From Parasitella parasitica NRRL 2501 (taxonomy: Eukaryota; Fungi; Mucoromycota): DNA of 64,000 nt. How positions within the stretch are numbered: position 1 is the first letter of the stretch; the number at the start of each line of letters is the position of its first letter. The notes beneath the pieces were generated by a model. That model did no database searches, was not told the origin of the DNA, and saw only the letters and a program-made list of their open reading frames with translations. This document shows positions 27,485 to 55,790 of this stretch, piece by piece. The stretch lies in assembly GCA_025201805.1 (NCBI GenBank), contig MU619369.1, forward strand, positions 4,672 through 68,671, written 5' to 3'. The position numbers and the translations under genes were made by a program.

Positions 27485-27744
27485 NNNNNNNNNNNNNNNN
27501 NNNNNNNNNNNNNNNNNNNNNNNNNNNNNNNNNNNNNNNNNNNNNNNNNNNNNNNNNNNNNNNNNNNNNNNNNNNNNNNNNNNNNNNNNNNNNNNNNNNN
27601 NNNNNNNNNNNNNNNNNNNNNNNNNNNNNNNNNNNNNNNNNNNNNNNNNNNNNNNNNNNNNNNNNNNNNNNNNNNNNNNNNNNNNNNNNNNNNNNNNNNN
27701 NNNNNNNNNNNNNNNNNNNNNNNNNNNNNNNNNNNNNNNNNNNN
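27485..27744. other. Assembly gap (N run)
   Basis: About 260 N characters. Confidence 1.
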
Positions 27745-29980: not shown

Positions 29981-30050
29981 ATTTAGATTTTTGTAAATTA
30001 CAGATATATACCAATTTTTGTTAAAATAAGTCTTGCAATATAAACACTTG

Positions 30051-30081
<31 letters not shown>

Positions 30082-30094
30082 TCTCTTTCTCTCT
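30051..30094. repeat. (CT)n microsatellite
   Basis: CTCTCT run downstream of the zinc-finger gene. Confidence 0.9.
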
Positions 30095-31008
30095 TTTTCC
30101 CCCTAAATCCTAAAACATGATATTTATGCGCAAAGTATATATTTATATATTGTATGTAAATAGAGAATTTGAAGAATTTATATGCAATTTGTATTTATAA
30201 AATGAATCTAATCTCTCCTTGCACAGTTTTCTCGTTTGAGAGAGAGTCTAAATATAAACTTTTATGTAGCCATAAAGATTTTCTTATTTCTCGCAATGCT
30301 CAGTCATCTTTTTAATACAAGCAGTATCTATATTATACAATCAAATCACGATATAGGGATCCGTTGATTGACGGAAGGCATGTACAAATGTGTATATAAA
30401 CGCAAAAGATATAAAAAAAAATGCAATTTTGCAATTAGGTTGCACCAGATACATTATTCTCGGGAAAGGGCCGATGCTAGTGTTTTTATTACAAATACTT
30501 GTATGTTTATATACTTCGCAGTCGTGTCAATACATTATCACAGGTTAATATGTGTGATTTCAAAAGGATGAACTATATAAGGTTTTTCCTTTGCTATAGA
30601 TTGGATTATTGTTATCCTTGTATTTTTAAATCACTGCTGGTAAACTGTTTTGTTGGATGGATTCGTTATACAGATTTCCCTAGTTTTGATTCAACCGATG
30701 AACAAACGAAAGGGTCGTGCTTCAAATTCAGATGTTTTATGTATGTGCCTTTGCAATTCTCAACCATATCATACTGATAATTAAGAGTAAAGAACACGCC
30801 CGCTTATCTTTTATTGAGTATCGCCTACTTCACAAGTAATTGGGGGCAAAATGAGCAACTAGGTGGTATTTTAGAAACTTCAAGGTATTTTAGTGCTAAA
30901 TAGACAATGAATAAAACATGTAGACGACGTAATTCTCCTTGAAGTATAGGACATTATAATTATTATTTCAGTGATCTTTATTTCCTGGACATGTATATAT
31001 AAATGAAT

Positions 31009-33335
31009 TTACAACGCTTGAGATACATTTTCAAAAAGAGCTTTAACAGCACCAGGGAGCTCTCTTTCGACAGAGGCAAGCGATCTTTGTAATGATTCCA
31101 CGGCTGCTAAACTCTTGGGGTTTTTGCAGTTTTTCTGGAGCTATATGAAAACGTGAGTTTAGTGTGTATTTCACTTTTCTTATTGAAACCTTACTTCGAT
31201 CAACAAGGGTGAAATTAACTCTAAAATTGGAGTATCGCTATATTGTCTTGACGAAGCCACAGTGTTGACACTTCGAGTAGAAGAGAATCTATTGGAAGTT
31301 GATGGCAAAACATTGGAGGCAATGTTCTGAATCATACTGCTTCGTTTATTTTGTTCAGCAAAACCTCCAAATTCTGCCTTGCGTACAGTATCGTGATCGT
31401 ATTCGGTCATGCTATTTCTGAAACTGGTTTTTTGTAACTGGTTCTATCATCGATATTAGAGTAGCTTTCTGGAAAGGGGCATAGTTCACTTACAGTTATT
31501 TCGTTTACCCGCGAAGAAGGTTGCTGGCTTTGCTGCTGAGGTTTTACTTGCATTCTGCTTGTAGTGCGTGGTAGTTGATTTTGGTTCTGCTGTTGGTAGC
31601 TTGTTTCGCTAGACAAACTGCTCACAGAATATTGACTGGGCGAGTGATTCATTTGCTGAAGCACTTTTTTTGGTGGCTCTTTGATTGTACCGAAATCCCA
31701 AGCATCATCATCGTCATTGTCGACACTGTGCAATATGCGTTACACCCTTTTGCGCTTATAAATCTGATGAAATCCTAAACTTACTCGTTTTCCTCTTCAG
31801 AAGAATTATCGTCATATCCATTAGTGCTACGCCATCTCTCGTGGCCTTCAATCAATTCTGTTAAATACGCAACTTTTTTACTGCTCTTGATGAATTTGTG
31901 CTTCAAAAGATCTTTTGCGGTGGGTCGCTAGTCGTTGGCTTGTAAGTGAGAATGCGTATAGATGACATGCAAAAAAAAACAGAAACTTACATTGGAAGGA
32001 CTTGTCTGTAAACACATGCTAACAAAATCGCGAAAAGCTTTACTGTGAGGAGGGCCAAGGGTCGGAGGGTCATTTTTGGGTATATGGAATAAAACTTTCA
32101 TAGGGTGCATGTTTGCATAAGGTGGCTCTCCTTTGGCGAGTTCGATTGCTGTGATGCCAAGGGACCAAATATCAGCTTTGTAATCGTAACCGGATTGTTT
32201 AATAACCTCTGGAGCCATCCAAAACTATCGGACGCAAGTTACTTACACGATTACAACATGATTCCCTAGTTGTGCACTTACTGGTGTTCCAACAAATGTG
32301 TTTTTCTTTGTCAGAGTAGCAGTGATCTACAACAGAATATACAAATTAACGATGTTTTGAAATTGCAATGTTTTCAGTTCAGTTACTTGTCCTGATACAC
32401 CGAAATCTGCCAGTTTGACTAAAAAGAATGGTCATGATTTAGCAACCTTCAGATATTGGATTTATATCTCTTTTTAAACCTTACCTTCACCATTGGAGCT
32501 TAACAAGATGTTGGCGGCTGTGAAAGACGGTGAGCTTCTTGGAAAAAAAAAACTCTCCACCCAAAAAAATGTTGCTGTTTACCTTTGATGTCTATTTTGA
32601 AGCTGCTACTTAGTAACTCTTCAATGTAAAATCTCTTTTGGTATCTCCTTACCTCTGTGTAATTTTCCTTCGTTATGAAGGTAATCTAAACCTTTCAGTA
32701 ATTCCTTGATAATGATTGCAATGTATTCTTCACGGATGATTCCCATTTTCATCTGGTCGATGAATCAGTGCATGCGTTTATTTGGTATGAAATTCATAAC
32801 TCACCAAATCACTACAAGAACCACCTGAACAGTATTCCATAATAATCCATAAGCCAGTTCCCTTAAGATATGATCCATGGTACCTGTAATTTAGGGAGAA
32901 TCAGATGGATTATTTTTAATAAAAAGGAGGTGAAAAGGTGCAATTACTTTGTTACGAAGGGCGAATCCAATTGAGAGAGGATAGCTATCTCTTGCTGAAT
33001 ATCATCGATTTCGTCTTCTGCGCTCTCAAGATCAATGATTTTGATGGCAACTGGCTTATTTGTACGTTTATCCAACCTATTTAGTGATCTCTCGCGTTAG
33101 CAACTTTTGCCTCGCGGAATATGCCTGAATTTACCCTTTGAAGACTTCACCAAAAGAGCCTTTGCCTGCGTCGAAATGGGTCAAATAACAATGAAAACAT
33201 GCAAAGCTTAAGAAGCTTACCAATGCGCTCTTGCTTTAAATAATATACCTCTGGATCGGTAGACTGATTTGCAGCACTCTAAATTCAAGGCTGTCAGAGA
33301 AAACTACACCTGATCTCATGCAAAAAATGTACCAT
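31009..33335 (-). CDS. Ste20-family GCK-III Ser/Thr kinase (STK24/25/MST-like), many exons
   Basis: [14 protein letters not shown]; [22 protein letters not shown]; HRDIKAANILL; [10 protein letters not shown]; [34 protein letters not shown]. Confidence 0.93.
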
Positions 33336-33532
33336 TTAATAATTTATACAGTTTCTGGTTGAAAGAAAACAAAAAAGAAAGAAAGAAAGAAAATCAAGGA
33401 GAAAAATCATTCAAATTATAGATATCGAGGGGAGCGGGAAAAGGGAATCATCCAAATTAGGATTTACAGTAAACAACACGTTTTTGAGATTGAAGCAAAA
33501 GGGCATGAATTTTATTGTTGTCAGTTTATGTT

Positions 33533-35149
33533 TTAAAACAACAAGCTCGCTGCTAAATCTGGATTGCCTCCAGCCATTTCTAACGCATTCAGCGCTTCCT
33601 GTCAATTTCAGATGGGTCAGCGATACATGTAGGTTTGAGTTGCAGAGACATGTTTACCTGACGACTAACTCCCATATCAGTGAGAACTTTAATGTCTTTT
33701 TCTGGATATGCTGCTGTTGTTTCTGCCGCTGCCGAGCTAGTCGAGGGTGGGGTGGATATCTGAGGCACAACTGTTCGTCCCTCTATGGCGGTTTCATCTT
33801 CATCACTGCCATGAATTTCTATTCTTCTCTGCTTTTCAGGAAGTTCATGTTCTGCCAAAAACGGGATGTCACAACTATCAAATGTTAAAGCATTCTTGCG
33901 AAGATCAATACAGGCACGATGCTTTTTTAACATATCGAGGCCGAAAAGCAGTTCAGACCCTTTCCCCTCGACAACAATGAATGAGCATGGCAAGAATAAA
34001 TTTTGTGATAGTCGCATTTGAGCACTATGAATACGGCCTAAAATTTTTGCTGTACCAACGCCTTTAGCTACCCCACTGAATCGTGTATCCAGTAACCGCA
34101 TCAAACCACATGATTCAGCCGTTTCGGGGCTGACTATAGTATGGCCTTGGGTTAACTTTTTTTTTGCTTATCTCCACTTTAGCAATATGTTACTCACTGA
34201 CTGTGCTTTGGGCACCTGAATCGACAAGAGCGACCAAATGCTTACCATTAATTTCGACATTGATATAAAGACGAGTTACCTTTGATTTTAAAGAAAAATA
34301 AAAAAAAAGATTACTACGCAGAAGATAAAGTTGTCATGGAAACAAATTACCCTAGCAAATGATTCAGGGTTATGCTCCATGGCAGCTTCTAGGTTGGCTG
34401 CAATATTTTCTTGTCGGATGGCATCTTCAATTCGTTTTTGAGCTTCGACATCAAATGGATCGTCATTGGTTGCAGCCTAATGTCGGTAGAAGTTAGTGTA
34501 TCTTACGGCAACCTATGCCTATCGATAAACTTGCAAGTTGTGCTTTCTGCACGCTTGCAGAATGCCTAGTTTGTTCAATCTGCTGGACCATGGTAGAGAA
34601 TTTTTCAGGGTCGTTTCTAGCAGCACGAGCCAATTCTGGATTCGTCTAATGAGGAGGAATCGTTTAGACAAACATAATATACTGCAACATCCAATTTGTC
34701 AACTTGCACTTTCTAACTGTTGTAAAAGACGAGGATCGTTTAATACATGTTGACGCATAAGCTCAAAATTAGAATTGCCTCCCCTATATTATCGGTAATC
34801 AGTTGACAAATCGAATCGCACAAGATTCATGTATGTGTGTATATCATTTTACGTTGTGCTGCCTTGTTGTTGTTGCTGTCGCATAGAAATAATCTCATTC
34901 TGGCCAACTCCATATTCTTCTAATGTCTTTTTAGGCTCGTTCAGCTCATGGCCGTTATAAGACAAGCGCAGCAATTGAGGTGAGATGCCAGACTGTATAC
35001 AGAAATTAGACATTAGCATAAAAAAGTAAAAGAGGTTCCCCTTTTTCCTCTACCTCTTCTCCCAACAGAGCCTTCAAGTCTTCGATAGCCATTTGGCTAT
35101 CAACATCGAGATTGTATATCTCTTCGCCATCTACAACGGTTACTAACAT
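33533..35149 (-). CDS. DDI1: DNA damage-inducible protein 1 (UBL, retroviral-like Asp protease, UBA)
   Basis: N-terminal UBL; DPFDVEAQKRIEDAIRQENI; ALVDSGAQST; LLDTRFSGVAKGVG; LFGLDMLKKH; UBA ending AASLLF*. Confidence 0.93.
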
Positions 35150-35633
35150 TTATTTAGAAAGAAAAGAATAAATAAGAGTAGTTGAGAAAGGAAGGCCCAC
35201 AAGACGCGATCGTTTATGAGACACAAATTCCCCGGAATTTCAAACATTACAGGAACTTCTGGATATTGCGCAACATTGGTGATATGTATTTTAAGCAATT
35301 ATCGATCAACTAGCAATAAACATAGTAGCCACATTTATAAATCAGTTCAATAAGGTTAAATTTTTAAGTTTATTTATTGAGATATCCAGTTGCTTTCACA
35401 TGTTGAGGTTTTGGATTGATTATATACGTTACATACAAGCCTCTCTTTTTCAGTGATCATCAATGCTAAATTAAATTTTGCATAAATTAACTCTTGAAAA
35501 ATCTTTTATTGAGCATTTCTGGCATAACATAGGCTTGAGGATGGGAATAAATGCCATGTTCTGCTACGAAACTTTATACAAGCAGTATCAGTTGATATAT
35601 TAAAGTTTATTAGTAATGTATGTGTGTGTATTA

Positions 35634-36269
35634 TTAAAAGGGGTCTAACATGAAATTATATACTTGTCCAGCAGATCGAGCAACTCTCTGTGCACAACGA
35701 GTGGAAGACGAAAATGTATACAAATTCGACAGCAAGTTAAAGATGCGGGTAGGCAACAAAGACGTGGCCCAGACGACATCAACGGGAATAAAGTCCTTGA
35801 GTGGTATTCTTACATTACGAGAAGAAGCAGTGTTTCTGTGTTTCTGCTTAAATAATTGTACAACATGTTTATGGCCAGCCTCTATTGCCAAACGTTCAGC
35901 GGTTTTCCCAACGCTATTTACAATTCTTAAATTGCTTGCATCAATCAACAATTTTACAATTTCAATTTTGCCAGACCAGCTTGCAAAATGAAGAGCTGTA
36001 AATCCATTTTTATCAACCTGATCCACGTTGCATTTGAGTTTGACGAGTGTTTTGACCAAACTGGTATAGCCGCAAAGTGTGGCCAGATGTAGTAGACTGT
36101 GCTGATTGACGTTGGTTAGCAACAGATGACTAGAGTTGCATGGAATGTATTCAATGGCCAGCAAACTGGCAATGACAGTCTGTTCTAGATGTGAAAGGAA
36201 CAGTTTTCGTGCATTGTCGTAAACTGCTGTTGCCGCCATTGTAGTCATTTTTTGCTGTTGCTGTTGTTG

Positions 36270-36308
<39 letters not shown>

Positions 36309-39007
36309 GTGGTGTGTAGGACCTTTTCCTTGGGAATTGTCGCCTTGAACAATACGCATGGCGATTTGTCTAGCGTCTTCCACTTTGCCCATTGTTTTGA
36401 GTCCGACTACTTGCAATGCTAGCTCCATAAGTGCACGATCGCTTTCGTCAAAGTAGGTGAACAATACGACATCTTGACCTTCCAGCATCAAGGGGTGTTC
36501 CTTGAAAGACACAACAACAGGACCTGCAGTAGCTGCAGGCGGCAAAATACACAAAAGCGTATTAGCACTCCAGCAATGAGTAGGGATAGCCGGATTTTCG
36601 CCAAATAAGCATGTCAGCCCTTCATAGAAATTACTGCCTAACACTGTCACTTCAGCGCCACCGTAAATAGGGCCTTCAGACGGAATTAATCGATGCAAAC
36701 GAGGCAAATTATTTTTGCCGCCTTCCAACGCATTTCGTTCGGATAGCTTAGCATAAAGGTTATTCTGATATTGATTCTGTTGTTGGTGTGTTGACTGCTG
36801 TGCTTGGGACATGCAATTACCGAAAACAGTGGCTCTTCTTCTGTTCATAGATGACTGCACGGGATTCTGTGTAAAGTGGCTCAACATTTGCTGCTGTTGT
36901 TGTAGATGCTGTTGCTGCTGGTGGTGGTGCTGTTCTGGGTTCATCAACGATAGAGACTGGTGTGTAATATGCGTCATATGAGACATTTGCGATTGAGAAT
37001 GTAGTGGTTGTTGATGCTGCTGAGGTAATAAATTGAGATCATTCGAGTTGAGAAAGTCAAACAGTTCGCTCTGTTGTTGCTGAGCTTGAGGTTGTTCATG
37101 ATGATGCTCATACTGGTGTTGGTGGTGCGATTGTTGCAGCTGAGATACAAAATGGTCTTGATTATCTTCTGCCAATGGATGCTGTTTGCTGTCATTTACA
37201 AACTGCTGATGATTCGACATACTCAAAGCGGTAGGGATGATGAGGGTGGATGAGGTGTTTATGGACGCAGGCGCATTAGTATTAGTATTATTATTACTAT
37301 TAGCCGTTGTCGTGGCCGTTGCTGCAGTAGATGTAGTCGGGCCATCAGTTTTTGAAGAGCGTTCAGGTATGTCATCTACTTGAGAGGATGGTGTAGCTGG
37401 CGTCGATGCAACAGGGCTAGAAACACCAGAATCAGTCTCAATCTCTGCCTTTCTTCTCGATGTTGATGGGGCATCGCTTTCAGTTGCAGAAGCGTCCATG
37501 TCTGCACGAGTTCTTTTTCTTGCGGCTGCTTGCTGCATTTTGGAGCTTTTGTGATCGTCTGTTATCATGATTGGAGGTGAACGGCCTGTAGCAATCACAT
37601 GGTCCAAATTGTCTTTCACAGTAAATACGATTCTTGAAAAAACATAGAAAAAAAAAATTGGGTTAATGGAGAACATGTAAAGGCAATTCATTGTCCGTCG
37701 CTTACCTAAAGCCTGCTTTTTCGCTATGATGGCGACAGTAGCATGTTACTCGTGTTGGCAATGTCGCTTCACCACTGTTGAATTCGACATACTCATTGCA
37801 ATTAAAGAGCAGTATTCTTTTTCTTTCCTCTGCCATAACGGTTTCATTGCTCAAATCAGGCAAATCGTTAGCAAACAAAGCAGCAAGTTTGGCCGCACCA
37901 CCCTCTTTATTTGCAGCACGAGCGACCTTATTGTCACGTTTTCTCTTTAGTCTTTTACGCTAAAAATTAAAAGAGTTGAGCCTTACAGGGCATAATGGTC
38001 TTGAAATTAGTCCACATACCTCTCGATGAACACAGCTTGTACACATGATGATTTCATTGTCTGGCTGGCCGTTGCAAACGACAGCAGCTTCCAAGGTCAA
38101 TACTTGGTTGTCCGTAAGGGATGCCTTTTCATCCGCCCCATACTTTTGGTTTTTGCGCTTCAATTTGTCTTTGGCCACAAGATGTTCAGGTAATTTGATG
38201 TGAGACCAATTGGTGGCTAATTCTCCAGTAGTATCCACTAGCTGGAGACAGATCTTGATTTGCGTTTCTACTCTGGACTTTGCGCCAGTATGGGGTAAGC
38301 CCAATACTCGAATATGCCATGGACTATCATTCCGGATGCTTTTTTTTTGTAAGGTTAGAGTTTTCACTCGCAAACATTTTCAGACTTACATTGGGGAAGA
38401 TGTCAAGTTTGCATCTGCTTCTTCTTCTATTTCTCCAGGGCCAAGTAAGCTTTGACTAAAAACATATTAATCGCTTGTGATGTTTGCTATCATGACTAAA
38501 TTTTACCCTGGAAGCGATGTTTGAGCTAAAAAGTCTTCAAAATTCAAGCAATTTCTGGCCAGGATAGGAATGGCATGTAATAAGGGATTTGTGAAAACCT
38601 TAATTTCCTCGTTAGAGATAGTATTGCTATGTGGATTGTGGAGAACCACTTACATGCAGCAAAGAAGAATGTCCTGCTTCTTTCGCTTTCTGCTTATCCT
38701 TCTTTGTACGCTCTGCCGGTTTGGCAAATCCTGGTTGCTCCTCTTGCTTTATCTTCATATTTTGCTCAAGAAGCTGATTAGGATCGATCCCCAGCTGACT
38801 ATTCGATGAGGAATCAAAGGATAAATGCTGATTGTTATATCCGGCCACTTGGCTCAGGAAAATGTCCATCGCTTGATCATTATTGTTAGTGTTATTGTTA
38901 TTGTTATTATTATTGTTATTAGGTAAAAGAGATAGGCTGTCATCGACTCTTTGCGAATGCGGTGGGGGTGATGGTTTTTTGTCGTTTGTTTCCAGTGGTG
39001 GAGACAT
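35634..39007 (-). CDS. Spt23/Mga2-like transcription factor (IPT/TIG plus ankyrin repeats)
   Basis: KSRVETQIKICLQL; TCYCRHHSEK; SPPIMITDDHKS; IPT RLIPSEGPIYGGAEVTVLGSNF; ankyrin LLHLA and GFTALHFASW. The 3' end is uncertain. Confidence 0.88.
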
Positions 39008-39172
39008 TGTGCGTTGTTGCTTAAAAAAGAGAAAAAGAAGAAGAAAAAAGAAAAGAAATAAAGAAAAAAAGAAAACGAATGATTCATCTCTCTTCGGTTA
39101 AAATATCACCACTGGCTTCCAACAGCCAGCCTTCGGTACGTCATGAGCAAATTTTTTTATTAGCACAAGAAA

Positions 39173-40357
39173 CTAATTGCTCTTAGCAAACTCGACTCTT
39201 AAAATGAGATTATCATAGCCACGGCCGTTGATATTCTGCTGAGCCTTCTCAGCTTGTTCACGCTCGTTGAAGGTAACAAAAGCGAACCCCTTACAGAGAT
39301 TGGTTTCACGATCACGAGCCAGAAAGACACGGGCGAGGCCGTTGAACCGGCCAAAGAGATCATATATATCGTTGTCAGTAACATCTTCAGACAAGTTTGT
39401 AACACGGAGAGTGGCAGAATCATCACGCTTTTGATCGCCACGCATAGACTCACCACTACCACCTTGCGCCTTACCACGAAGATGGGGAGGTGTATATTTG
39501 CTAGGTCCTGAACTACTGTCTGCTGCTTCTGATGCAGTCTCGGCTCCGTCGAGTTTAACAGCTTCGATTGTAGAAGCAATTTCGTCCAAAGGCTTCATAG
39601 TGTCCTTATAAGGACACTTACTTGTGAAATGCTCTCCTTTACAAATACGGCATGCAATATTCTTGGCCTTGAGTTGACCATTAAGCTTCTCCTTGGCTTC
39701 TTCTTCCGTAGCCGCTTCCACAGTCTAATTACCATTGAATATCATTAGCTAAACATGCTCACTAATGCATAACATGTATCTTTTCCATACCTTGCCGGTA
39801 CTTGATCCCAATTTCAAAGGAATATTTTCACCAATAGTGGTAGTAGAAAGATCAGGGCCGGCCTTGTTACCCTTCTCTTCTCCAAATTTAGCCCACTTTT
39901 TACGCAGTGCAACACTTTTATTGACATGTTCAGTTATGAGCTTTGCACGAAGTTTACGAGTAACCTAAGTAGATGAAATAATTCGCATTAATACCATCCG
40001 AGTTTATTTCGCTTAAATAATCCAACCTTGACTTTCTTGCCATCATCGTTGTCTCTATATTCAATAATAACCTTGTTGCCATCTTCGTCAGTGTACATTT
40101 GAGGTTGGAAAGAATCTAGTTTTTCAAGTTTTTTCGTTTTTTTTTTTTTTTTGAGCATTCGGTTATCGAGTGTTTGTCGCCATCTTTGGTTGTGATAGAT
40201 TACCTTCCTCGTCCTCATATTCATCAGCCCAGGAAGCCTTAGCTGGTGCACTACAAATGTTGATACAGAAATCGTTAATACAAGATTTCATGTCGTGTCA
40301 CTGTACAAGAAATGCTTTGTTTCAGAAATCAATAACATACGCAGTATCAACAGCCAT
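39173..40357 (-). CDS. TIF35: Translation initiation factor eIF3 subunit g
   Basis: SWADE; CRICKGEHFTSKCPYK zinc knuckle; RRM TLRVTNLSED...KGFAFVTF...GYDNLILRVEFAK. Confidence 0.96.
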
Positions 40358-40864
40358 TATATTATATTATTAGAGAGGTTAAAGAGATTGTAAACTCAAG
40401 TAGAGATTGAATTCAAAGTATCCTGTATCAATATTTTTTCTATTTCAATAAGCCACTTCGTTTTGAACGTTGGTCGAGTCACATTGGGGTTGAAGATCTG
40501 AACATTATCTCTAAATTTAAGGTTCATTTCAATGCTCTACCATAAGAAGTTGATGTCTGTTTGAAAAGCCAAAAGGTAGAATAGATTTCTCTACTTGTTT
40601 TTACCTTGGATGCTTGGCAAATCACATCTGATCTGGTCGCCTAGCAACTAAAGATAGAGTCGTCTTTGGTTGCTATGATGAGGAACTCCGCTTTTCTCAA
40701 ATGACGTTGCTTCGAGGAAGCAAACATATATGGAGCTTTGCCGCGCTTTAGGTTACTATTATTGCTTTTCTCCTTCTATTTTTATAAACAAACACAAACA
40801 GGCGGAAAATCCTCTAACAATACAGCGAAAAATATTTATAAGCACATATATCAGTATATAAAAA

Positions 40865-43104
40865 ATGTCAAGTACATCGCTATTCAAATGGATGGGTTTG
40901 GTAATTCGAATAGCCAATTTGAAGCCATGACAATAAACATCATATTCATGTCATATGCATTAGGGTCAGCAATCTGGAAATGGACATGGAGCAAAACCAG
41001 CTATTGATAACGATGCTGTTGATGAAGGAGAACGCTATTTCGGTCTAGAAAATGTAAGTTGCAATCTACTCTACAATTAGCCTTTCCGCTGATGGTCTTT
41101 CCTTTTTTTTTGTTGTTATTTTAGTTTGGTAATACATGGTAGGTACAATTGAATAAAGAAATACGTATAAGACCTAACAATTGAGAACAACAGTTATAGT
41201 AACTCGGTAGTTCAAGCTCTTTACTTTTGTAAACCATTTCGACAATGTGTATTGAATTTTCCACAAGTCAGCACAGCTCAACTTTTTACACCACAACCGA
41301 TACATCCTAATTCTCCTATGAGCAATGGACATTCGTATTTTCCAACGACAAGCTCGTCTACCACCTCTTCATCTCCTTCCTCGAATCCAAAAAGTGGGAC
41401 GAATACACCAAGTAAAGAGAATACTAATAAACGCTCGAGTAATACGACACCGGCTACCCAGCCAACTGTTATTGAGAAAGATCAAAATAATATGAATTTA
41501 GCTCCTGGTATGGAAGACACTCTTTTTTCCTCGCTAAAAGACTTATTTTGGAAAATATCACAAAATAAAAAGAAGAATGGAGTAATTGCACCTGTGAACT
41601 TTATCAACAAGGTCAAAAAAGAGAATGGTTGGTATTCTTAATACTTTTTGTATGCAGTGTGCTGATATTTATACACAGAGCTATTTCGATCAAGCATGCA
41701 TCAAGATGCTCATGAGTTTTTAAATTATACATTAAACACTATTGCCGAAGATGTCCAGAAATATCAACAAAAAATAGCAGATGAAAATGAGAGCAAGCAA
41801 GGAAGTACCAATAGTGATAGCCAAACCGACAGTACGGCAGGTACGATGTATTATCTTTGTGTACGGTATTGAAACCAACTCAACATTTGCGACAGGTACG
41901 GGACAAAACCCAAAGAACACATGGGTTCATCAATTATTCGAAGGTGTATTTTCGAATGAAACAAAATGCTTATCTTGTGAAACTGTAAGTTTGCTGCATC
42001 AAGTTTTGTCGAGATAACCAAACAACTATTAGGTCACTAGTAGAGATGAGTGTTTTATGGATTTATCGATAGATGTGGAAATGAATTCGTCTATTACATC
42101 TTGCCTAAGGCAATTCTCGGCAAGCGAAACATTATGCCATAAAAACAAATACTTCTGTGATGTTTGCTCCGGTCTTCAAGAAGCAGAAAAAAGGTAATAT
42201 CCTCATATGAATGCTGATGTTGTTGATTTTTAAAGAAATTTCGTCTAGAATGAAGATTAAGAAACTACCCAACATATTGGCACTTCATCTAAAGCGTTTC
42301 AAATATCAAGAGCAACTGCAAAAGTACATCAAATTAACTTATAGAGTGGTTTTTCCTTTTGAATTGAGATTATTCAACACAGTATGATTTAATGTATTGT
42401 ATTTTACTATAAAAGTACTAAACTAAAGTGATTAGAGTGACGATACCGAAGATGCCGATAGAATGTATGAGCTTTGGGGCATAGTAGTGCACATTGGAAG
42501 GTTTTTTTTTTTTTTTGAAATTCAAATCAAAGGCTCGACTTACTCATGTTTAATATAATAGTGGACCTCATCATGGACATTATGTTGCTATTATCAAAAG
42601 CAATGGCCAATGGATGCTTTTTGATGACGATGTAGTGACAGTAAGTACCTCTACTGTGAAATTTGAAAAGGACGATTTCAATTGAGACTATTCTAGCAAA
42701 TCCAAGAGGAGGATATTCAAAAGTACTTTAGCGATCTTCCGGGAAGTGGATCAGGATATGTCCTGTTTTATCAAGCAGTCGATTTGAATATGGATGCTAT
42801 TAATATAGGATTGGAAACAGCGAAAAAAATGGATGAAAGTAATAATAATCAAAGCAACGGCGGGCCATCAGCACTATCATTACAGCATCCCACTATTGCC
42901 ACTATTCCTGTAAATCCTTTGCGATCAGACAATAATAACGATAACCACTTTAATCTTAAATCACCTATACTGCAGAAAGAAGAGTGCAATGATATCCCTA
43001 CACCAGAATCGACTCCTCCGCCTGTATTCGCTCCTCAACCACAGCAGCCCGAAGAAAAGAAGACTAGATGGGGGTTAGGTCGTAAAAAGAGGGATAAAAA
43101 ATAA
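40865..43104 (+). CDS. Ubiquitin-specific protease of the USP12/USP46 (Ubp9/Ubp13/CreB) type
   Basis: [21 protein letters not shown]; HQDAHEFL; [16 protein letters not shown]; [26 protein letters not shown]; [12 protein letters not shown]. Confidence 0.92.
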
Positions 43105-43860
43105 AATAAAATTACGTTTATTTGTGGTATTACTAGCAATTTATATGGTTGATAATTACCCAAAATTCTTAAAATGAAAAGATCGTCTGTCATGTAAATC
43201 AAATGTTATGTCGCTTCCAACAAATTGTTCGACTTTGCTTACATTTCATATAAACGCATAAACGTTTTGATATACAGCGAAATAAGCTTCTTTTAAGCTT
43301 GACAAAAACATGCATGAATATCGCTATCTGAGCATAACTTACTCTCCACTGGGCGATGTGTCTATCAAAAGGTATGAGTAAAAATAGTTTTTATTTTCAT
43401 AATAATTCATCTTGAATACAAATATTTGGTTACAAATTCTGAAAACGTAACGAGAAGATTATCGCTAATGTATCAATTCCCCAACCGTACGTCAAATCCA
43501 AGTAAACTCACCCCAGAACAAAATCCAGGAACATATCTCAGTAGATCCCGTTCCATAATAAATTTTAATTTATCATGGCTTGCTTATGGACAATATAAAC
43601 AATAATCTATCGTCACATTCCCTAAATCACACCACACCTCACATCTACACTTTACCTTCCCATCAGTTCACTTGAATTCACTAGTAGTATATAATTAAAC
43701 AAGCATATTTTCCGTGTAATAAACAATTATTTCTTCACATTAATTCACAGCAGCAAATTGTTATATTTTTGAATAAAAGGTTTATGCGACGAAAAATTAT
43801 TACAGAAACGAAATGGCCATACATAGGATTGACCGCAGGACACTGTTTGTTGTACATTTT

Positions 43861-46800
43861 TTACTTGTCCTGAGATTTTACATCATCACCGTTCGTATTG
43901 TCATTCTTTTTCTCCCATTCCCCCTCTTCAATCAAGGTCTCCTCGTCTCCAACCGGCGCCAAGCGCTTTTTTGTAATGTTCTCCTCTTCAGTAGCAGCAG
44001 TGCCAGGAGCATGGTTTCTCTGAATAACCAAATCAGTCTCACCATTCTCTAGAGTTTCTACTGAGATCTTTGCAGTTTCTCCTGTGCGAACACCTCCATC
44101 GATCAATAGGCGAGCTAAAGGATTCAGCAATTTCTTTTGAATCAAGCGATTCAAGGGTCGAGCGCCGTACGCAGGATCATAACCACGTTCTCCTAACCAA
44201 TCTCTTGCCTTAATGTCAACGTCAATCTTAATACGGCGATCCGCTGTACGGCTCTCCACTTCCTTGATACGAACATCAACAATATCACGCAGAGCAGACT
44301 TTGAAAGTCGATTAAAGATTACCATTTCGTCAATGCGATTGACAAACTCGGGGGCGAAGCTGCGTCTAACAGCTTCCATAACGCTCTCCTTGGCACGAGC
44401 GCTGACAATGCCTTCTTGGTTCGTATCATGGACTAAGGCCTCAGCACCCAAGTTGGATGTCATGATAATGATTGTGTTACGGAAGTCGATCTTGCGGCCT
44501 TTAGTATCTGTCAAGACGCCATCATCAAGCACCTGTAATAAAATGTTGGATACGTCGTGATGTGCCTTTTCCATCTCATCAAGCAGAACAACAGCATATG
44601 GACGACGACGAACAGCTTCAGTCAATTCACCACCTTCTTCATGGCCGACATAACCTGGAGGGGAACCAATCAGGCGACTGACGCTGAACTTCTCCATATA
44701 TTCAGACATATCCACACGAACAATGGCGTTTTCTGTGTCAAACAAGAACTTTGCGATAGTCTTGCACAGCTCAGTCTTACCAACACCAGTGGGGCCTAGG
44801 AACAAGAACGAGGCGATGGGCTTGCTTGGATTTTGCAAGCCAGCACGACTCAAGCGAACAGCGTCAGCAACAGCGTGAATAGCTTCATCTTGACCTACGA
44901 CACGCTCTGTCATGACATCTTCCATGTGCAGCAGTTTCTCGCGCTCTCCCTTCATCAAGTTGCGTACTGGAATACCGGTCATTTGAGAAACTACACGAGC
45001 AATGTCGTTTGATGTTACTCTTTCGTGGATAAACGACTCGGTGTTCTCATCTTCGGCTTGATTTTCGGTGGGCAGTTTCTTTTCTAGGTTGGGAATGACA
45101 CCGTATCTCAATTCAGACGCACGCTGGAAGTTGCCAGCACGCTGGGCTTGCTCCAGATCAACACGAGCCTTTTCCAAATCTTCTTTCACCTTTTTGATTT
45201 CGTCCAGCTTCTGACGCTCGGTATTCCAAATCTCTGACAAACGCTTGCTTTCTTGTTGCTTGTCTTCGAGGTCCTGCTTCAATTTGTCACGACGTTCAAC
45301 AGACATGATATCGGTTTCTTTGCGCAAACTTTCTAGCTCGATTTGAAGCGTCATGATTTGACGGTCAAGGTTTTCCAGTGCTTCCGGCTTACTCTCTTGT
45401 TGCAGACGAAGCTTCGAACACGCCTCATCAATGAGGTCAATGGCCTTATCAGGAAGGAAGCGGTCTGCAATGTATCGATGAGAGTGAATAGCAGCAGCTA
45501 CAATGGCAGCATCAGAAATACGAACACCATGGTGCACTTCATAGCGCTCTTTAAGGCCACGTAAAATGGAGATTGTGTCTTGCACGGAGGGCTCTTCAAC
45601 CATAACTTGCTGGAAACGACGAGCCAAAGCAGGGTCTTGCATAATATACTTGCGATACTCATCAATTGTGGTAGCACCGACACATCGTAGTTGACCTCTA
45701 GCCAATGCAGGCTTTTTTTTTGTTTCAGCAAGTTGATAATTGTGTTTTTATACTGATAGTCCTTACCTTGAGCAAATTGCTTGCATCCATAGCGCCCTCT
45801 GATTTTCCCAATCCGAGCAATGTGTGAATTTCGTCCACAAACAGAATGATATTCCCTTCTGATTCAGACACCTCCTTCAAGACACCTTTAAGACGATCTT
45901 CAAATTCGCCGCTAGACAAATGTAAGTATACTGAGACTTGAAACATGACTTGGATTGACTAACCGATATTTTGCACCTGCGACAAGAGCCTAGCTTGAAA
46001 ATGTTAGTGGTTGCAATACATTTGCATGGATATATTTGACAGCTTACACCTAAATCCAAGGCAATTACTCGCTTCCCTTGGATTGATTCGGGTACTTCAT
46101 TCGCGACAATACGTTGAGCCAAACCCTATAAATTTGTTTTTTTTTTTTTTTTTCATGAGCGTTCTACCAAATCTCAATTCATGCAAATGGCTTTTACTTC
46201 AGCAATCGCGGTTTTACCGACACTAAATTTTTGTCATTCACAAACAAGGGTTAGATATTTGAATCATAATACACGCAATTCTTAAATCAACGTTTACCCT
46301 GCTTCACCAATCAATACTGGGTTATTCTTGGTACGTCGAGCCAATCTACATTACTCTGGCGTTAATGGCTTTCGCACAAAAACGTCGCAAAAACTTACAC
46401 TGTGATGGAAAATATAAGTATGCATCACCTTTATCAATTTTTCTACTACTATACCTTCCAAAGTTCGTCTAATCTCTTCATCCCGGCCGATGACAGGGTC
46501 TGTTTTGGTTAGGTTTTAGTAAATTATGTTATATAACAATCGTGATGGCATCTCTTCACAAGTCCGACATCGAAATATCCAGAACATTTGCCTTCATACA
46601 TACCCAGTTTTCCCTTCTCTGCCATTGCAGTGAGATCAATTCCCTAAAAAAAAGAATACCCCCATTAGAAAATACATCGTCATTCTGTTGAATAACAAAT
46701 AATTTTACGAATTGTTCTAGAGGTTTTTGCTGCTCCTGCTCTTGATTAGGATTCAATCTGAAGCCTTGTCCACCTTGCCCAGGTGTTCCTCCTGGCTTAA

Positions 46801-47034
46801 CGCATCAGAATACTTGTGCATGCATGTAATATATAGTCATCAACTACCATTATAAAATCGTTTGGCACCGTAATACGTGGCTAACATGGGCTGTCTCTTC
46901 AATGCAACAGCTATTAAGGAAGTCGCTTTGACAGTTCCCTCCAATGATTTGTTTGTCAAAATACGGCGTTCAATGTTTGCATGCAATTGACGTCGTGTTG
47001 CAACACTAAAATTTCTTTGTGAAAACCTCAACAT
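43861..47034 (-). CDS. HSP78: Mitochondrial ClpB-type disaggregase Hsp78
   Basis: Basic presequence [16 protein letters not shown]; no N-terminal Clp repeat domain; [13 protein letters not shown]; two AAA modules ([16 protein letters not shown]). Confidence 0.93.
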
Positions 47035-47254
47035 TGCTAATTTGGGAAGAAAAAAAATGCAAGAGAAAAGGATGAGATAAAAATTATCGGGAGCTTTTTT
47101 CGCATTTATATATGGTTTTGACAACAAGGCGGGGAAATCATGGCTCGGATGATATGCAGTAGACTGGCACCACTCTTGCTACCACGGTGACTAGATTAAA
47201 TTTTTGCTTGATTTTCAAGAGGGGAGGGCTGTTCCAATTTTCTCCAAAACAATC

Positions 47255-50032
47255 ATGTTTATACAAAGGACTTCCTTGTTGTTTTGTAAGCATATAAAAA
47301 CAACATCATATGGTTCCATATCGTGCGTCTATAAAAGATGGAACTCAAAAAGCTCTACTGAGGTAAGCATAGGCATTCAAGTTTGAAAGCTGGAGCATAA
47401 CGAATGTATCCTAGAAATTAAAAGGTGCCAATCCCAGCAAAGTGATCGATTTGACAGCATTTCCTGCAGAAAACATAAGAAACTTCAGCATCATTGCTCA
47501 TATAGGTAAAATGAAATACTAGTGTCTAGTTTGACATCATGCTTACTACGTTGAAACCGCAGATCATGGAAAAAGTACTTTGGCTGACAGGTAAAAAAAT
47601 TCTTCAAGGTCGGGTTGTGCAATAATTTTGAAGCTTGATGTATTTTGCGCTAGATTATTAGAGTTGACAAACACAATATCGGCAACAGGTTCGAATAAGC
47701 AAGTGCTGGATAAGCTGAAAGTCGAGCGAGAAAGAGGAATCACTGTAAAAGCTCAGGTAAGAAGGATCCAACCTTTCCTTGACAAAGATCCCACCCTTTC
47801 TTACCTGTTGCAACATGGTAGACAGTATCCATGTTTTATAGTCACAATGGCACAGAATACCTACTGAATCTAATTGACACGCCTGTATGTATGCACATTT
47901 CACTGATTAAGAGTCGTCAACTTATCCGTAGGATAGGGACATGTTGATTTTAGTTACGAAGTGTCAAGATCATTAGCTGCATGTCAAGGGACGCTGCTGT
48001 TGGTGGATGCTGCACAGGGCATCCAAGCACAAACAGTAGCAAACTTTTATTTGGCATTTGGAGAAGGATTAGAGATTATACCCGTCTTGAACAAGATTGA
48101 TTTGCCTGGTGCAGAACCCGAGCGAGTATTGAAGCAGATTGAAAGTGCTTTTGAGCTGAATACAGATGACATTCTGCAGATTTCTGCCAAATCAGGGATC
48201 AACATTGATAAAGTATTGCCGAGCGTTATTGAAAAAGTGCCGCCGCCAGCTGCGTCCATAGACAAGCCATTTCGAGCATTGCTGTTTGATTCGTGGTATG
48301 ATAAGTACGTTGGTGTAGTCTGTATGCTTGGAATGAAGGATGGTATGCTGCGAAAAGGCGACAAGGTTGTTTCTGCGCATTCTGACACTAAATACGAAAT
48401 CACTGAGATCGGCATCATGCACCCTGAGCAAGTACCCACAGGTTATTTGTAAGTGTGCCATCTGATCACCTGGTTTTCACTCACAAAAATATAGACATGC
48501 TGGTCAGGTTGGATATATTGTTTGTGGCATGAAAAGTGCGTCAGAGGCCCATATCGGTGATACCTTTCATCATTTGGGCCAAAAAGTAGAGATTTTACCA
48601 GGCTTTCAGCCTGCCCAATCCATGGTGTTTGCTGGCATCTTCCCTGTAGACACGAATGATTTCAGAAAATTGGATGAAAATATCAAGAAATTGACCTTAA
48701 ACGACGCCAGTGTCACGGTGCACAAAGAGACTAGCCATGCTCTTGGTCAAGGATGGCGATTAGGATTTCTGGGAACATTGCATATGGATGTGTTTAGACA
48801 GCGTCTGGAAAATGTAATTGCTTTCAGATGAGGTCAACATGTATGCTGACTAGACAGCTTTTTGATTTAGGAATACGATGCTAATATCATTGTGACACAA
48901 CCAACTGTGCCTTACAAAGGTACAATCCTGTCCTCAAATGGCAAGGAAATATACGCTCTCCATTAAACCTAGTTTTCGTTTTGTAGTCGTTTACCGAGAC
49001 GGCAGCTCGAAATTAGTAAGGAATCCAGCAGATTTTCCTGATCTCGAGGAGCGTTCATTCAAAGTGTCGAAATTGCAAGAACCTATGGTATTAGCAACCC
49101 TTATTTTCCCTGATGTAAGTTGCTATTGATAGCAACCAATTTTTAGTCTGACATGGGCGCGTAGGAATATATGGGTAAATTGATTGAATTATGCGGCGTA
49201 AGTAACAAGATAATTGGGCAATAGACGATAATTGACATTTACTGTGCAGTCTCGCAGAGGAGAGCAATTAGAATATGTGTATGTGGATGAAACACGTGTC
49301 ATGATGAAGTACAGAATTCCTCTTGCAGAAGTGGTGACAGACTTCTATGATGAACTCAAGAGCAGATCTTCTGGATACGCCTCCTTTGATTACGAAGACG
49401 GCGGATATGAAGATAGCGATTTAGTAAAGGTATCCTAATATCATCAAAAATATGTCAAATGTTGAATATTTACACCTCAAATGCTGGACAGATGAATGTT
49501 CTTTTGAATTCAAAGCCTGTCGATGCACTTTCTGTGATTTTGCATCGAAGCCAAGTTGACATTGTTGGCAGAGACTGGGTCAAGAGACTAAAAGGAGTCA
49601 TTCAGAGACAGCTGTTTGACGTTTCAATCCAAACTGCTTTAGGGACAAAGATCATTGCCAGAGAAACGTAAACGTTTGAATTATTGATGATCCTCACATG
49701 ATGCTAAACGTTTTTCTTTTCTTTTTACAGTGTATCCGCCATGCGTAAAAATGTCACGGCTAAATGCGTAAGCACATAAGATCAAAATGAAATGCTACAC
49801 TCACTTATAAAGCAATATATACAATATATAGTATGGTGGAGATGTCTCGCGAAAAATGAAGCTCCTGCAAAAGCAAAAGGAGGGCAAAAAAAGGATGAAA
49901 ATGATTGGTAATGATACATCGTACAACGGAAAGAGAAGGCTGTCATTTCTAATTTATCATCAACATTTAGGTAATGTAGAATTGCCTCAAAAAGCCTTTT
50001 ATGATTTCATGGATAAAAGTAAAAACTCTTGA
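47255..50032 (+). CDS. GUF1: Mitochondrial translation factor Guf1 (LepA/EF4)
   Basis: [20 protein letters not shown]; [11 protein letters not shown]; [15 protein letters not shown]; [11 protein letters not shown]; [31 protein letters not shown]. Confidence 0.96.
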
Positions 50033-54829: not shown

Positions 54830-55790
54830 TACACTCAAAATCACAGCTTTTTGCTGCTTACTCTGGGTAAAGACTTCATCTTTACGCGCAACACATCTGG
54901 GAGAAGAGAGGGCAGCTTTTGTGGATTCAGTAACCTATTTTGCTGCTTCGGATGTCTCTTGAATGGTATGCGATGGATGATAGTGTCATATTTCCCAGCG
55001 AAATCACCACAACATCACTGCTTTTTGCTGGTTACTCTGGATAGAAACACCACCCTTACACGAAATTGTAACAGTAAAGTTTGCTCTTCTGCTGCTTTCA
55101 AAAGAACTCGAAGGGGAATACCTACAAATCTTCACCGACAACACTACCACCGTTAAAGACGCTATGAGATCAGGCGGTACATCCTCAGTAGCCCTCCAAG
55201 ACCTCGCAATAGAGATCCAAGAGATCATCCTTCTGGACAACTTGCAGGTAAAGTTCCAACGCTTTGCGTTGTAATCTCACAGAAGACCAGGCATTATTCT
55301 TGGCAAACATTAATGATAAGAACTCATGTCGTTCAATTCTTCCCTCAACTGCTACCTCTTGATTAACCGCCCTGATGAAAGTCTCTGGAGTTGATACGAA
55401 TGTGTTCAAGGCCCACTCCTTAAGGTTTACTGCAAGCACAAAGGCAGTGCAAGGAGTGGTTGCCATCCAGACAATCAGAGAACATGGCAATTGGTCACAA
55501 TCTGCAAATACTTTCGAACAGTATTATGATAGACCATCCGAACAACACGCACGTGGATCATTAATTACAAAACAATTCTCTAATGATGCAGAGAACAGAG
55601 CCACATCGGAAGTCGGAGTGGAGGCAACCTCAATTGTGTTAGGAACGACACACAATGGTGCTGTTGTCGAAACGAAGACAGAGGATGTGGTGGGGTCCTG
55701 TTGCAAGAAATTATGGAAATTGCTATCTTTTAAATAAGTTTATCAGCTAATTTCTCTCCCTCATACCACCAATCCATCAAAAGAGTTGCG
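54830..55790 (+). mobile_element. Degenerate DIRS-type (tyrosine recombinase) retrotransposon remnant
   Basis: RNase H-like segment EIVTVKFALLL...LQIFTDNTTTVK..MRSGGTSSVALQDLAIEIQE, then a YR C-terminus GVDTNVFKAHSLR.TASTKAV....I..I..HGNWS..ANTFEQYYDRP. Stops and an internal deletion are present. Confidence 0.8.

What the first reader, a model, noticed from the sequence alone, without database searches (positions are those of the whole stretch)
46346..46454. Apparent single-nucleotide exon in HSP78
Seen on the minus strand: an exon ends ...TTG GAA G|GTATAG (intron 46454-46400, 55 nt, ending CACAG). One base T follows at 46399, then GTAAGT (intron 46398-46346, 53 nt, ending TGTAG), then ATTGGCTCGACGT. 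Including the single T gives GAA GTA TTG GCT CGA CGT ACC AAG AAT AAC CCA = [11 protein letters not shown], the conserved ClpB motif. Skipping it frameshifts. The nearby alternative AGs give immediate stops. Both introns match the local size norm. One-nucleotide exons are very rare and are usually mis-modelled by gene predictors. Skipping could act as an on/off switch for the chaperone (inference).
Basis: seen in the sequence. Interest (0 to 1): 0.7.

Follow-up and report, generated by a model that had tools for sequence, protein, structure and literature searches.

The report
Ancient one-base exon in fungal HSP78
A single T lying between two ordinary introns is spliced into the messenger RNA of this mould's gene for the heat-shock chaperone HSP78; the same one-base layout stands in the DNA of distantly related root-symbiotic fungi, so it is likely over 400 million years old and likely explains why public gene models so often go wrong at this spot.

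Summary
Confirmed. Coordinates are exact. A spliced RNA contig (run X1, depth 251.8, no mismatches in the listed pieces) joins 46455 to 46345 with exactly one extra base, the T of 46399. This gives Val119 of an 842-residue Hsp78 in a Mucor-like fungus. No single intron yields that junction. Public protein models are broken at this codon in 41 of 60 Mucoromycotina and 13 of 13 Glomeromycotina records, but in 0 of 22 Mortierellomycotina. The exon is likely constitutive, spliced by intron definition and held by the reading frame. The on/off-switch idea has no support: no skipped form was listed, though contigs drop rare variants. One-base exons are published (plant APC11 and VPS55, Fusarium CYP621A, 13 Coprinopsis genes); seven searches found none for HSP78 or these fungi. 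New member of a known kind, notable for its age and for being a U rather than a G.

The parts
46399..46399 (-). One-nucleotide exon (T; exon 5), middle base of the Val119 codon G-T-A
   Evidence: RNA contig shows exactly one letter between the flanking exons; codon and phases
46400..46454 (-). Intron A (intron 4), 55 nt, phase 1, GTATAG...CACAG; putative branch site TACTTAT (inferred by eye)
   Evidence: donor scores above 13 of 20 and acceptor above 8 of 20 RNA-supported sites
46346..46398 (-). Intron B (intron 5), 53 nt, phase 2, GTAAGT...TGTAG; putative branch site CATTAAC (inferred by eye); cryptic CAG at 46356
   Evidence: donor scores above 19 of 20 local donors; acceptor scores below all 20 local acceptors but is the one used in the RNA contig
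46455..46499 (-). Exon 4 (45 nt), encodes (D)[14 protein letters not shown] plus the G of the Val codon
   Evidence: RNA contig positions 303-347
46298..46345 (-). Exon 6 (48 nt), A of the Val codon plus [15 protein letters not shown], leading into Walker A of NBD1
   Evidence: RNA contig positions 349-396
46848..47034 (-). Exon 1 coding part (ATG at 47034); basic N-terminus, likely a mitochondrial presequence
   Evidence: 12 R/K against 2 E in the first 62 residues; RNA contig starts at 47026
46709..46791 (-). Exon 2
   Evidence: RNA joints, model
46604..46643 (-). Exon 3
   Evidence: RNA joints, model
46198..46222 (-). Exon 7 (25 nt), completes Walker A
   Evidence: 5' joint; the 3' joint lies in a skipped poly-A repeat and rests on GT..AG and an open frame
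46048..46125 (-). Exon 8
45964..45989 (-). Exon 9 (26 nt)
   Evidence: RNA joints, model
45767..45911 (-). Exon 10
   Evidence: RNA joints, model
43861..45711 (-). Exon 11 coding part: AAA lid, middle domain, NBD2, stop codon
   Evidence: RNA contig; Pfam PF17871, PF07724, PF10431

Best explanation
The T at 46399 is a real one-nucleotide exon that is spliced into the HSP78 mRNA as the middle base of Val119; it is likely constitutive, likely removed from its two short introns by intron definition in two ordinary splicing steps, and likely inherited from the common ancestor of Mucoromycotina and Glomeromycotina. Shown: the junction in RNA, the open 842-codon frame only with the T, and the same DNA layout in three Glomeromycota contigs. 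Inferred: each 53-55-nt intron is recognised as a unit, so the exon never has to be recognised itself; either intron can go first, since each removal leaves a normal border for the other. The exon base is a U, which matches neither exon-side consensus (G; established knowledge). Removing intron A first also creates a tandem GT (GAA|GTGTAAGT). The invariant, U1-complementary donor GTAAGT likely compensates for both; the competing GTGTAA scores below all 20 local donors. Any slip (skip, retention, cryptic AG) gives an early stop before or at the first ATPase domain, so purifying selection on the frame keeps the arrangement. Origin (inferred, weaker): intron A was inserted at an AAG| site one base upstream of an older phase-2 intron B, a position also seen alone in an unplaced eukaryote (L004/L005). 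Mortierellomycotina likely lost one or both introns.
For: RNA contig with a one-letter bridge and no other differences. Full model of 2529 nt, 842 aa, with one stop, 93.5% identical without gaps to Mucor lusitanicus P0131. No single intron with any end dinucleotides gives Val at this codon at normal length. AG-T-GTAAGT at the same codon in L002, L003 and L007, with intron interiors otherwise poorly alignable; shuffle frequencies 0-0.0008 per locus. Tree: L002 sister to Paraglomus (SH-aLRT 98), L002 and L007 inside Glomeromycotina (97), window among Mucor relatives (99) (quick tree). In broken public models the first residue after E/Q is from a G-starting codon in 40 of 40 cases (a phase-1 donor), and the residue before L is S/R in 20 of 34 (a phase-2 AG read as coding). 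Among length-intact records the residue is V in 119, G in 10 and I in 1.
Against: RNA evidence is one run from one study, as contigs; no raw reads, no partly spliced intermediates, no DNA run of this strain. The Glomeromycota exons rest on DNA only. Other Mucorales were seen only through annotated proteins, and 19 of 60 are intact (most Rhizopus records among them), which may mean correct annotation or loss of an intron. Acceptor B scores weakly in my 20-intron matrix, and a cryptic CAG scores higher. The Mucoromycotina plus Glomeromycotina node is only 89 in an unfinished single-gene tree. Records share annotation pipelines and ancestry, so the counts are not independent.
Confidence: 0.93

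Rival explanations
1. The exon is real but also works as a regulated switch: skipping it or retaining a flanking intron under some condition (e.g. heat) makes stop-containing mRNA and turns Hsp78 down. This is compatible with the exon being real; it differs on function.
For: Skip gives a stop after 129 residues, retention of A after 144, of B after 119; skip also gives early stops in L002, L003 and L007. L002 and L007 keep this intron pair while lacking 7 of the window's other 8 intron positions over the covered span (continuous tblastn matches, positions), which could mean the pair is favoured. Plant VPS55 shows alternative inclusion of a 1-nt exon (PMC8831610, passages).
Against: Only the included form was listed among the 2 records laid and the 35 (joint tables partly cut). 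The donor is a perfect GTAAGT in 4 of 4 loci. The seven other introns may be Mucorales gains. The gene has ten introns, so general splicing inhibition needs no micro-exon (inference).
Confidence: 0.1
2. Assembly or strain artefact: the true gene has one 109-nt intron followed by T-A-TTG, and the window lost a T, or the RNA run carries a different allele.
For: No DNA run of this strain could be laid (one search listed only X1); a 104-nt intron exists in the same gene.
Against: The same phase-1 donor / phase-2 acceptor mismatch with a central AG-T-GTAAGT in three unrelated assemblies. 54 of 73 informative Mucoromycotina and Glomeromycotina models are broken at this codon. X1 shows no listed letter differences over 20 kb.
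Confidence: 0.02
3. The 109-nt stretch is a [D1,2]-type stwintron: intron A is an internal intron splitting an external donor G|T, and after its removal an external intron starting at that GT is excised.
For: The geometry G-[intron]-T matches the [D1,2] definition (PMC5587772, abstract and Introduction), and removing intron A does create GTGTAA.
Against: That path would remove the G and the T and shift the frame; the RNA contig keeps both. The created donor scores -2.3, below all 20 local donors, against 8.2 for GTAAGT.
Confidence: 0.02
4. One intron with non-canonical ends, or a non-templated U added by editing, supplies the base.
For: None found; formally the RNA shows only an extra letter.
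Against: No single-intron cut with any end dinucleotides gives Val at this codon at normal length. A templated T with canonical sites is conserved in 4 of 4 loci.
Confidence: 0.01

Closest known systems
One-nucleotide exon of Fusarium CYP621A P450 genes (Nelson and Syed 2026, PMC12940212; read parts 1 and 2 of 3: abstract, Introduction, Results, Discussion, Methods; supplements not seen)
   Same: Fungal spliceosomal 1-nt exon giving the middle base of a codon in a conserved motif; phase-1 donor meets phase-2 acceptor; transcript support; gene models wrong at the site.
   Different: There the base is G (which the authors argue is favoured) and the exon is reported within one genus, in a rarely expressed P450. 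Here it is U, in a core chaperone, shared by Mucorales and Glomeromycota.
Single-nucleotide exon of plant APC11 (Guo and Liu 2015, PMC4674806; read part 1 of 3: abstract, Results, start of Discussion) and plant VPS55 (Yu et al. 2022, PMC8831610; passages)
   Same: 1-nt exon needed for the frame of a housekeeping gene, missing from annotations, conserved over a comparable depth (mosses to flowering plants), lost in some lineages through intron loss; conserved GTRAGT donor downstream in VPS55.
   Different: Plants, other genes. APC11 was proven by mutating the base, which is not done here. VPS55 has alternative isoforms; none was seen here.
Coprinopsis cinerea 1-nt exons, 13 in 13 genes (PMC12230235; passages only, gene list and supplements not seen)
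   Same: Fungal 1-nt internal exons found from long-read annotation.
   Different: Basidiomycete; conservation not described in the passages seen; whether HSP78 is among the 13 could not be checked.
[D1,2] stwintrons (Fekete et al. 2017, PMC5587772; read part 1 of 4: abstract and Introduction)
   Same: Two consecutive U2 reactions by intron definition around a G|T; relevant to intron positions one base apart.
   Different: In a stwintron the G and T are intronic and removed; here both stay in the mRNA, and both introns have their own complete splice sites.
Hsp78 / ClpB / Hsp104 AAA+ disaggregases
   Same: Two AAA+ domains, AAA lid, ClpB D2-small domain; best solved relatives are Hsp104 and ClpB.
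   Different: No Clp N-terminal domain in the stand-in P0131, and a basic N-terminus, as expected for mitochondrial Hsp78; the protein itself is ordinary.

Membership tests
Spliceosomal single-nucleotide exon | One base flanked by AG upstream and GT downstream, between two complete introns | tested here: met
   CACAG-T-GTAAGT; introns of 55 and 53 nt, both GT..AG
Spliceosomal single-nucleotide exon | Mature transcript contains exactly that base between the flanking exons | tested here: met
   one letter at record position 348; one run, contigs only
Spliceosomal single-nucleotide exon | Needed for the open frame | tested here: met
   842 aa with it; stops after 119-152 residues for skip or retention
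Spliceosomal single-nucleotide exon | The mRNA base is templated by that genomic base (mutation, or single-intron intermediates) | not testable with these tools
   needs raw reads or a minigene; conservation in 4 of 4 loci supports it indirectly
Spliceosomal single-nucleotide exon | Conserved at the orthologous position | tested here: met
   L002, L003, L007; DNA of other Mucorales was not available
Regulated (alternative) micro-exon | Skipped or retained isoform whose share changes with condition | tested here: inconclusive
   none listed, but contigs drop rare variants and only one run exists
[D1,2] stwintron | Internal intron splits the external donor; G and T are absent from the mRNA | tested here: not met
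   both bases are kept
Hsp78 (mitochondrial ClpB) | Two AAA+ domains with Walker A motifs, AAA lid and D2-small domains | tested here: met
   (last exon directly, whole protein through stand-in P0131)
Hsp78 (mitochondrial ClpB) | Orthology to fungal Hsp78 and lack of the Clp N-terminal domain | tested here: met
   nearest named relatives are called hsp78; tree (no Hsp104 rows included); no PF02861 in P0131
Hsp78 (mitochondrial ClpB) | Mitochondrial import | not testable with these tools
   only composition: 12 basic against 2 acidic residues in the first 62

The most novel reading that the evidence does not exclude
This U exon is a rare genomic marker at least about 400 million years old. It arose once, by insertion of an intron one base upstream of an intron older than fungi, is kept across Mucorales, Umbelopsidales, Endogonales and Glomeromycota even where neighbouring introns are absent, and is missing from Mortierellomycotina. 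It would be the deepest-conserved fungal one-base exon in the papers searched, a character bearing on the contested branching of the three lineages, and a natural test of how a spliceosome handles an exon base that fits neither splice consensus.
Probability: 0.35. Interest if true: 0.6.

Novelty: new member of a known kind. Interest (0 to 1): 0.42.

Why it matters
Practical: Hsp78 models of most Mucorales and arbuscular mycorrhizal fungi in public databases are wrong at the entry to the first ATPase domain (54 of 73 informative records), including false Val-to-Gly changes, insertions and lost N-termini. Mechanistic: it is an RNA-supported one-base exon in an expressed housekeeping gene of a Mucor-like fungus, so splicing order and fidelity at the minimum exon size can be measured directly; the base is U, unlike the G argued to be favoured in Fusarium. 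Evolutionary: presence in both Mucoromycotina and Glomeromycotina puts it in their common ancestor (Glomeromycota fossil calibration 407 Mya in PMC11134847, passages). On that paper's tree (Glomeromycota sister to the other two lineages) Mortierellomycota must have lost it; on the alternative tree it is a shared derived trait. Intron loss is common, so one site cannot decide.

Tried and rejected
No whole genome is held for this window, so no genome-wide survey of 1-nt exons was possible. The run search listed one holder only, with RNA status a guess; its many GT..AG joints show that it is spliced RNA. No DNA run and no raw reads were offered, so skipping rates, intermediates and a read-level indel check were not done; the absence of a skipped contig is not evidence of absence. 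The viral-contig scan found 0. Of 7 metagenome hits, L001 and L006 are GC-rich, intronless, bacterial-type ClpB genes with an apparent frameshift error and were dropped. L004 and L005 are 99.3% identical and count as one organism. The scan pattern required the phase-2 acceptor, so genes without intron B could not be seen; it did not require the 1-nt exon. A homology search did not name the L004/L005 organism (best named hits 70%), and its place outside fungi in the tree is unsure. The careful tree search did not finish; L003 (too short) and L004 (duplicate) were left out. The other three YAGNGTRAGT matches in the window (14820, 18159, 57014) were read by eye only: none showed an obvious upstream branch and pyrimidine context, 14820 and 57014 look like ordinary exon ends, and none was checked against RNA. 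A second AG-N-GT in the gap would leave a 9-nt intron and was rejected. In one search, 119 of 134 proteins were classed; 15 single-exon ORFs lacking the region were left out, and 7 classed records also lacked it. Paper searches pairing Hsp78 with exon and Mucoromycota or with microexon, and '1-nt exon' with fungi, returned 0; microexon with Mucor or Rhizophagus returned no relevant title (listings only). Look-ups of earlier findings for this gene or place returned nothing.

Full report
Observation. I enumerated all GT/GC-AG and AT-AC single-intron solutions and all GT/GC-AG two-intron solutions between the conserved flanks. Several keep the frame open but delete or insert residues; only the 1-nt exon gives [11 protein letters not shown] at normal length. 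No single cut with any end dinucleotides puts Val at that codon at normal length.

Transcript evidence. The run search listed one holder, X1, kept as contigs, its RNA status a guess. Laid on 43700-47300, one 2632-nt contig (depth 251.8, 0 other letters in the 7 of its pieces shown) is spliced across the gene; eight joints are listed, all CT..AC on the plus strand, and one joint at a poly-A repeat was dropped by the tool. The joint 46345-46455 skips 109 bases, with exactly one letter between, A on plus and so T on the coding strand, at record position 348 between pieces 303-347 and 349-396. A second lay on 30001-50000 repeated it, listed no letter differences and showed many more spliced joints, so X1 is spliced RNA of the same or a near-identical strain. 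The model built on these joints has 11 exons, 2529 nt and 842 residues, and is 93.5% identical without gaps to Mucor lusitanicus P0131 over 819 positions. Skipping stops after 129 residues, retention of A after 144, of B after 119 and of both after 152. The T is the middle base of Val119, 13 residues before Walker A. Limits: one run, contigs only, so rare isoforms are invisible.

Gene identity. The last exon's best hits are Parasitella and Mucor proteins (95%), many named hsp78. Pfam gives AAA, AAA lid, AAA_2 and ClpB D2-small, without a Clp N-terminal domain in the stand-in P0131. The best solved relatives are Hsp104 and ClpB, with the motif aligned residue for residue in the one alignment shown. 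The N-terminus is basic, as in a mitochondrial presequence (inference).

Conservation in DNA. One scan of metagenome contigs for the phase-2 acceptor followed by the conserved codons gave 7 loci. Two are bacterial-type frameshift artefacts. L002, L003 and L007 each have a phase-1 donor after the Gln codon plus G, the phase-2 acceptor, and exactly one AG-N-GT between them, always AG-T-GTAAGT (introns 96/70, 93/73 and 77/62 nt). In alignment this 9-mer is the block that all four share with the window inside the gap, whose other parts align poorly. Shuffles give it at 0.0003 in the window and 0-0.0008 in the others. L002 is sister to Paraglomus (98) and L007 sits with Rhizophagus and Glomus (88) inside Glomeromycotina (97) in a quick 53-row tree; L003 is placed by similarity only (80.7% DNA identity to L007). 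L004/L005, one unplaced AT-rich eukaryote, has only a single phase-2 intron at the position of intron B.

Traces in public protein models. Of 134 proteins fetched by then, 119 were classed by the residues between IRRT(L/I)(E/Q) and L(A/S)RRTKNNP. Mucoromycotina (Calcarisporiella included): 66 records, 6 without the region, 19 intact, 41 broken (9 Gly for Val, 16 other insertions, 16 with one flank only). Glomeromycotina: 13 of 13 broken. Mortierellomycotina: 22 of 22 intact. Chytrid, blastoclad and zoopagomycote records: 10 intact, 1 broken, 1 without the region. Short-contig, transcript-like records: 6 of 6 intact. In broken models the residue after E/Q comes from a G-starting codon in 40 of 40, and the residue before L is Ser or Arg (AG-N) in 20 of 34, the pattern expected from a phase-1 donor and a phase-2 acceptor that cannot be joined. 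P0055 (Cunninghamella echinulata) reads as the frameshifted skip product. This is indirect evidence: records are not independent, and intact ones may have the exon correctly modelled or may have lost an intron. Of 89 further eukaryotic and bacterial homologues, 86 were intact by a looser pattern, and the other 3 differ by substitutions upstream.

Mechanism. Shown: inclusion in the main transcript, need for the frame, conserved layout. Inferred: splicing by intron definition, which PMC5587772 (Introduction) states for filamentous ascomycetes and which I extend to these short introns; the exon then needs no recognition of its own. Donor B outranks 19 of 20 local donors, while the tandem GT created by removing A first ranks below all 20. 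I infer that the perfect GTAAGT offsets the non-consensus U and the competing GT. Acceptor B scores low in this small matrix, and a cryptic CAG ten bases upstream scores higher, but the latter lies about six bases from the putative branch A and would give a stop; the contig uses TGTAG. Origin: most simply intron A was gained one base upstream of an older intron B. Support is a single unplaced organism, so parallel gain of B or loss of A there is not excluded. L002 and L007 lack 7 of the window's other 8 intron positions but keep this pair; this may be selective retention or Mucorales-specific gain of the others.

The switch hypothesis. Nothing here supports it, and the invariant strong donor argues for inclusion. 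It is not excluded, because no raw reads or stress conditions were available.

Comparison with the literature. One-base spliceosomal exons are published for Arabidopsis APC11 (PMC4674806, part 1 of 3), plant APC11 and VPS55 across land plants (PMC8831610, passages), Fusarium CYP621A (PMC12940212, parts 1-2 of 3) and 13 Coprinopsis genes (PMC12230235, passages). Seven searches of the held library showed no report for HSP78, Mucorales or Glomeromycota. Subscription journals are largely missing from it, and I read no supplements; the Coprinopsis gene list may bear on this. Unchecked notes of this scan describe similar conserved fungal exons in other genes, those shown all G, so the class seems to recur in fungi; I did not test them. 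For age and tree shape I used PMC11134847 (passages): Glomeromycota sister to the other two lineages, with a fossil calibration of 407 Mya.

Verdict. Real, RNA-supported and deeply conserved; a new member of a known kind. Interest 0.42.

Noticed in passing
window 32583-32591 (-): 9-nt micro-exon (introns of 61 and 65 nt, GT..AG) completing the HRDIKAAN catalytic loop of a protein kinase. The RNA lay showed extra letters at joint 32523-32653 but counted 3, apparently because part was aligned onto the acceptor.
   Followed up: partly
window 41125-41138 (+): 14-nt micro-exon completing the ENFGNTCY motif (Cys box, name recalled) of a ubiquitin-specific protease; RNA-supported.
   Followed up: partly
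window 34646-34707 (-): GC-AG intron (donor GCAAGT), RNA-supported, in a gene with a DDI1-like aspartic-protease stretch (name recalled).
   Followed up: no
window 34474-34533 (-): RNA joint skipping 58 nt with listed ends GC..TT on plus, not canonical as listed; may hide another tiny exon or be an alignment shift.
   Followed up: no
window 47034-47256: HSP78 (minus) is head to head with a LepA/GUF1-like GTPase gene (plus; name recalled from its motifs); the two transcript contigs start about 230 nt apart with a TATA-like TATATAAA near 47112, a likely bidirectional promoter of two mitochondrial genes.
   Followed up: no
P0044, P0047, P0053, P0056, P0060, P0063: Six public Mucorales Hsp78 models of 915-984 aa also carry Pfam PF01263, likely fusions with a neighbouring gene by annotation, hinting at conserved gene order.
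   Followed up: no
P0077: A record named Basidiobolus ranarum is 84% identical to the window protein, far closer than other Zoopagomycota (67-71%), on a 3.9-kb contig; likely Mucorales contamination.
   Followed up: no
window 55188-55734: Open frames with tyrosine-recombinase-like motifs (HSLR...T, G.WS; recalled), possibly a DIRS-type element remnant.
   Followed up: no
window 27485-27744: Assembly gap of 260 N.
   Followed up: no
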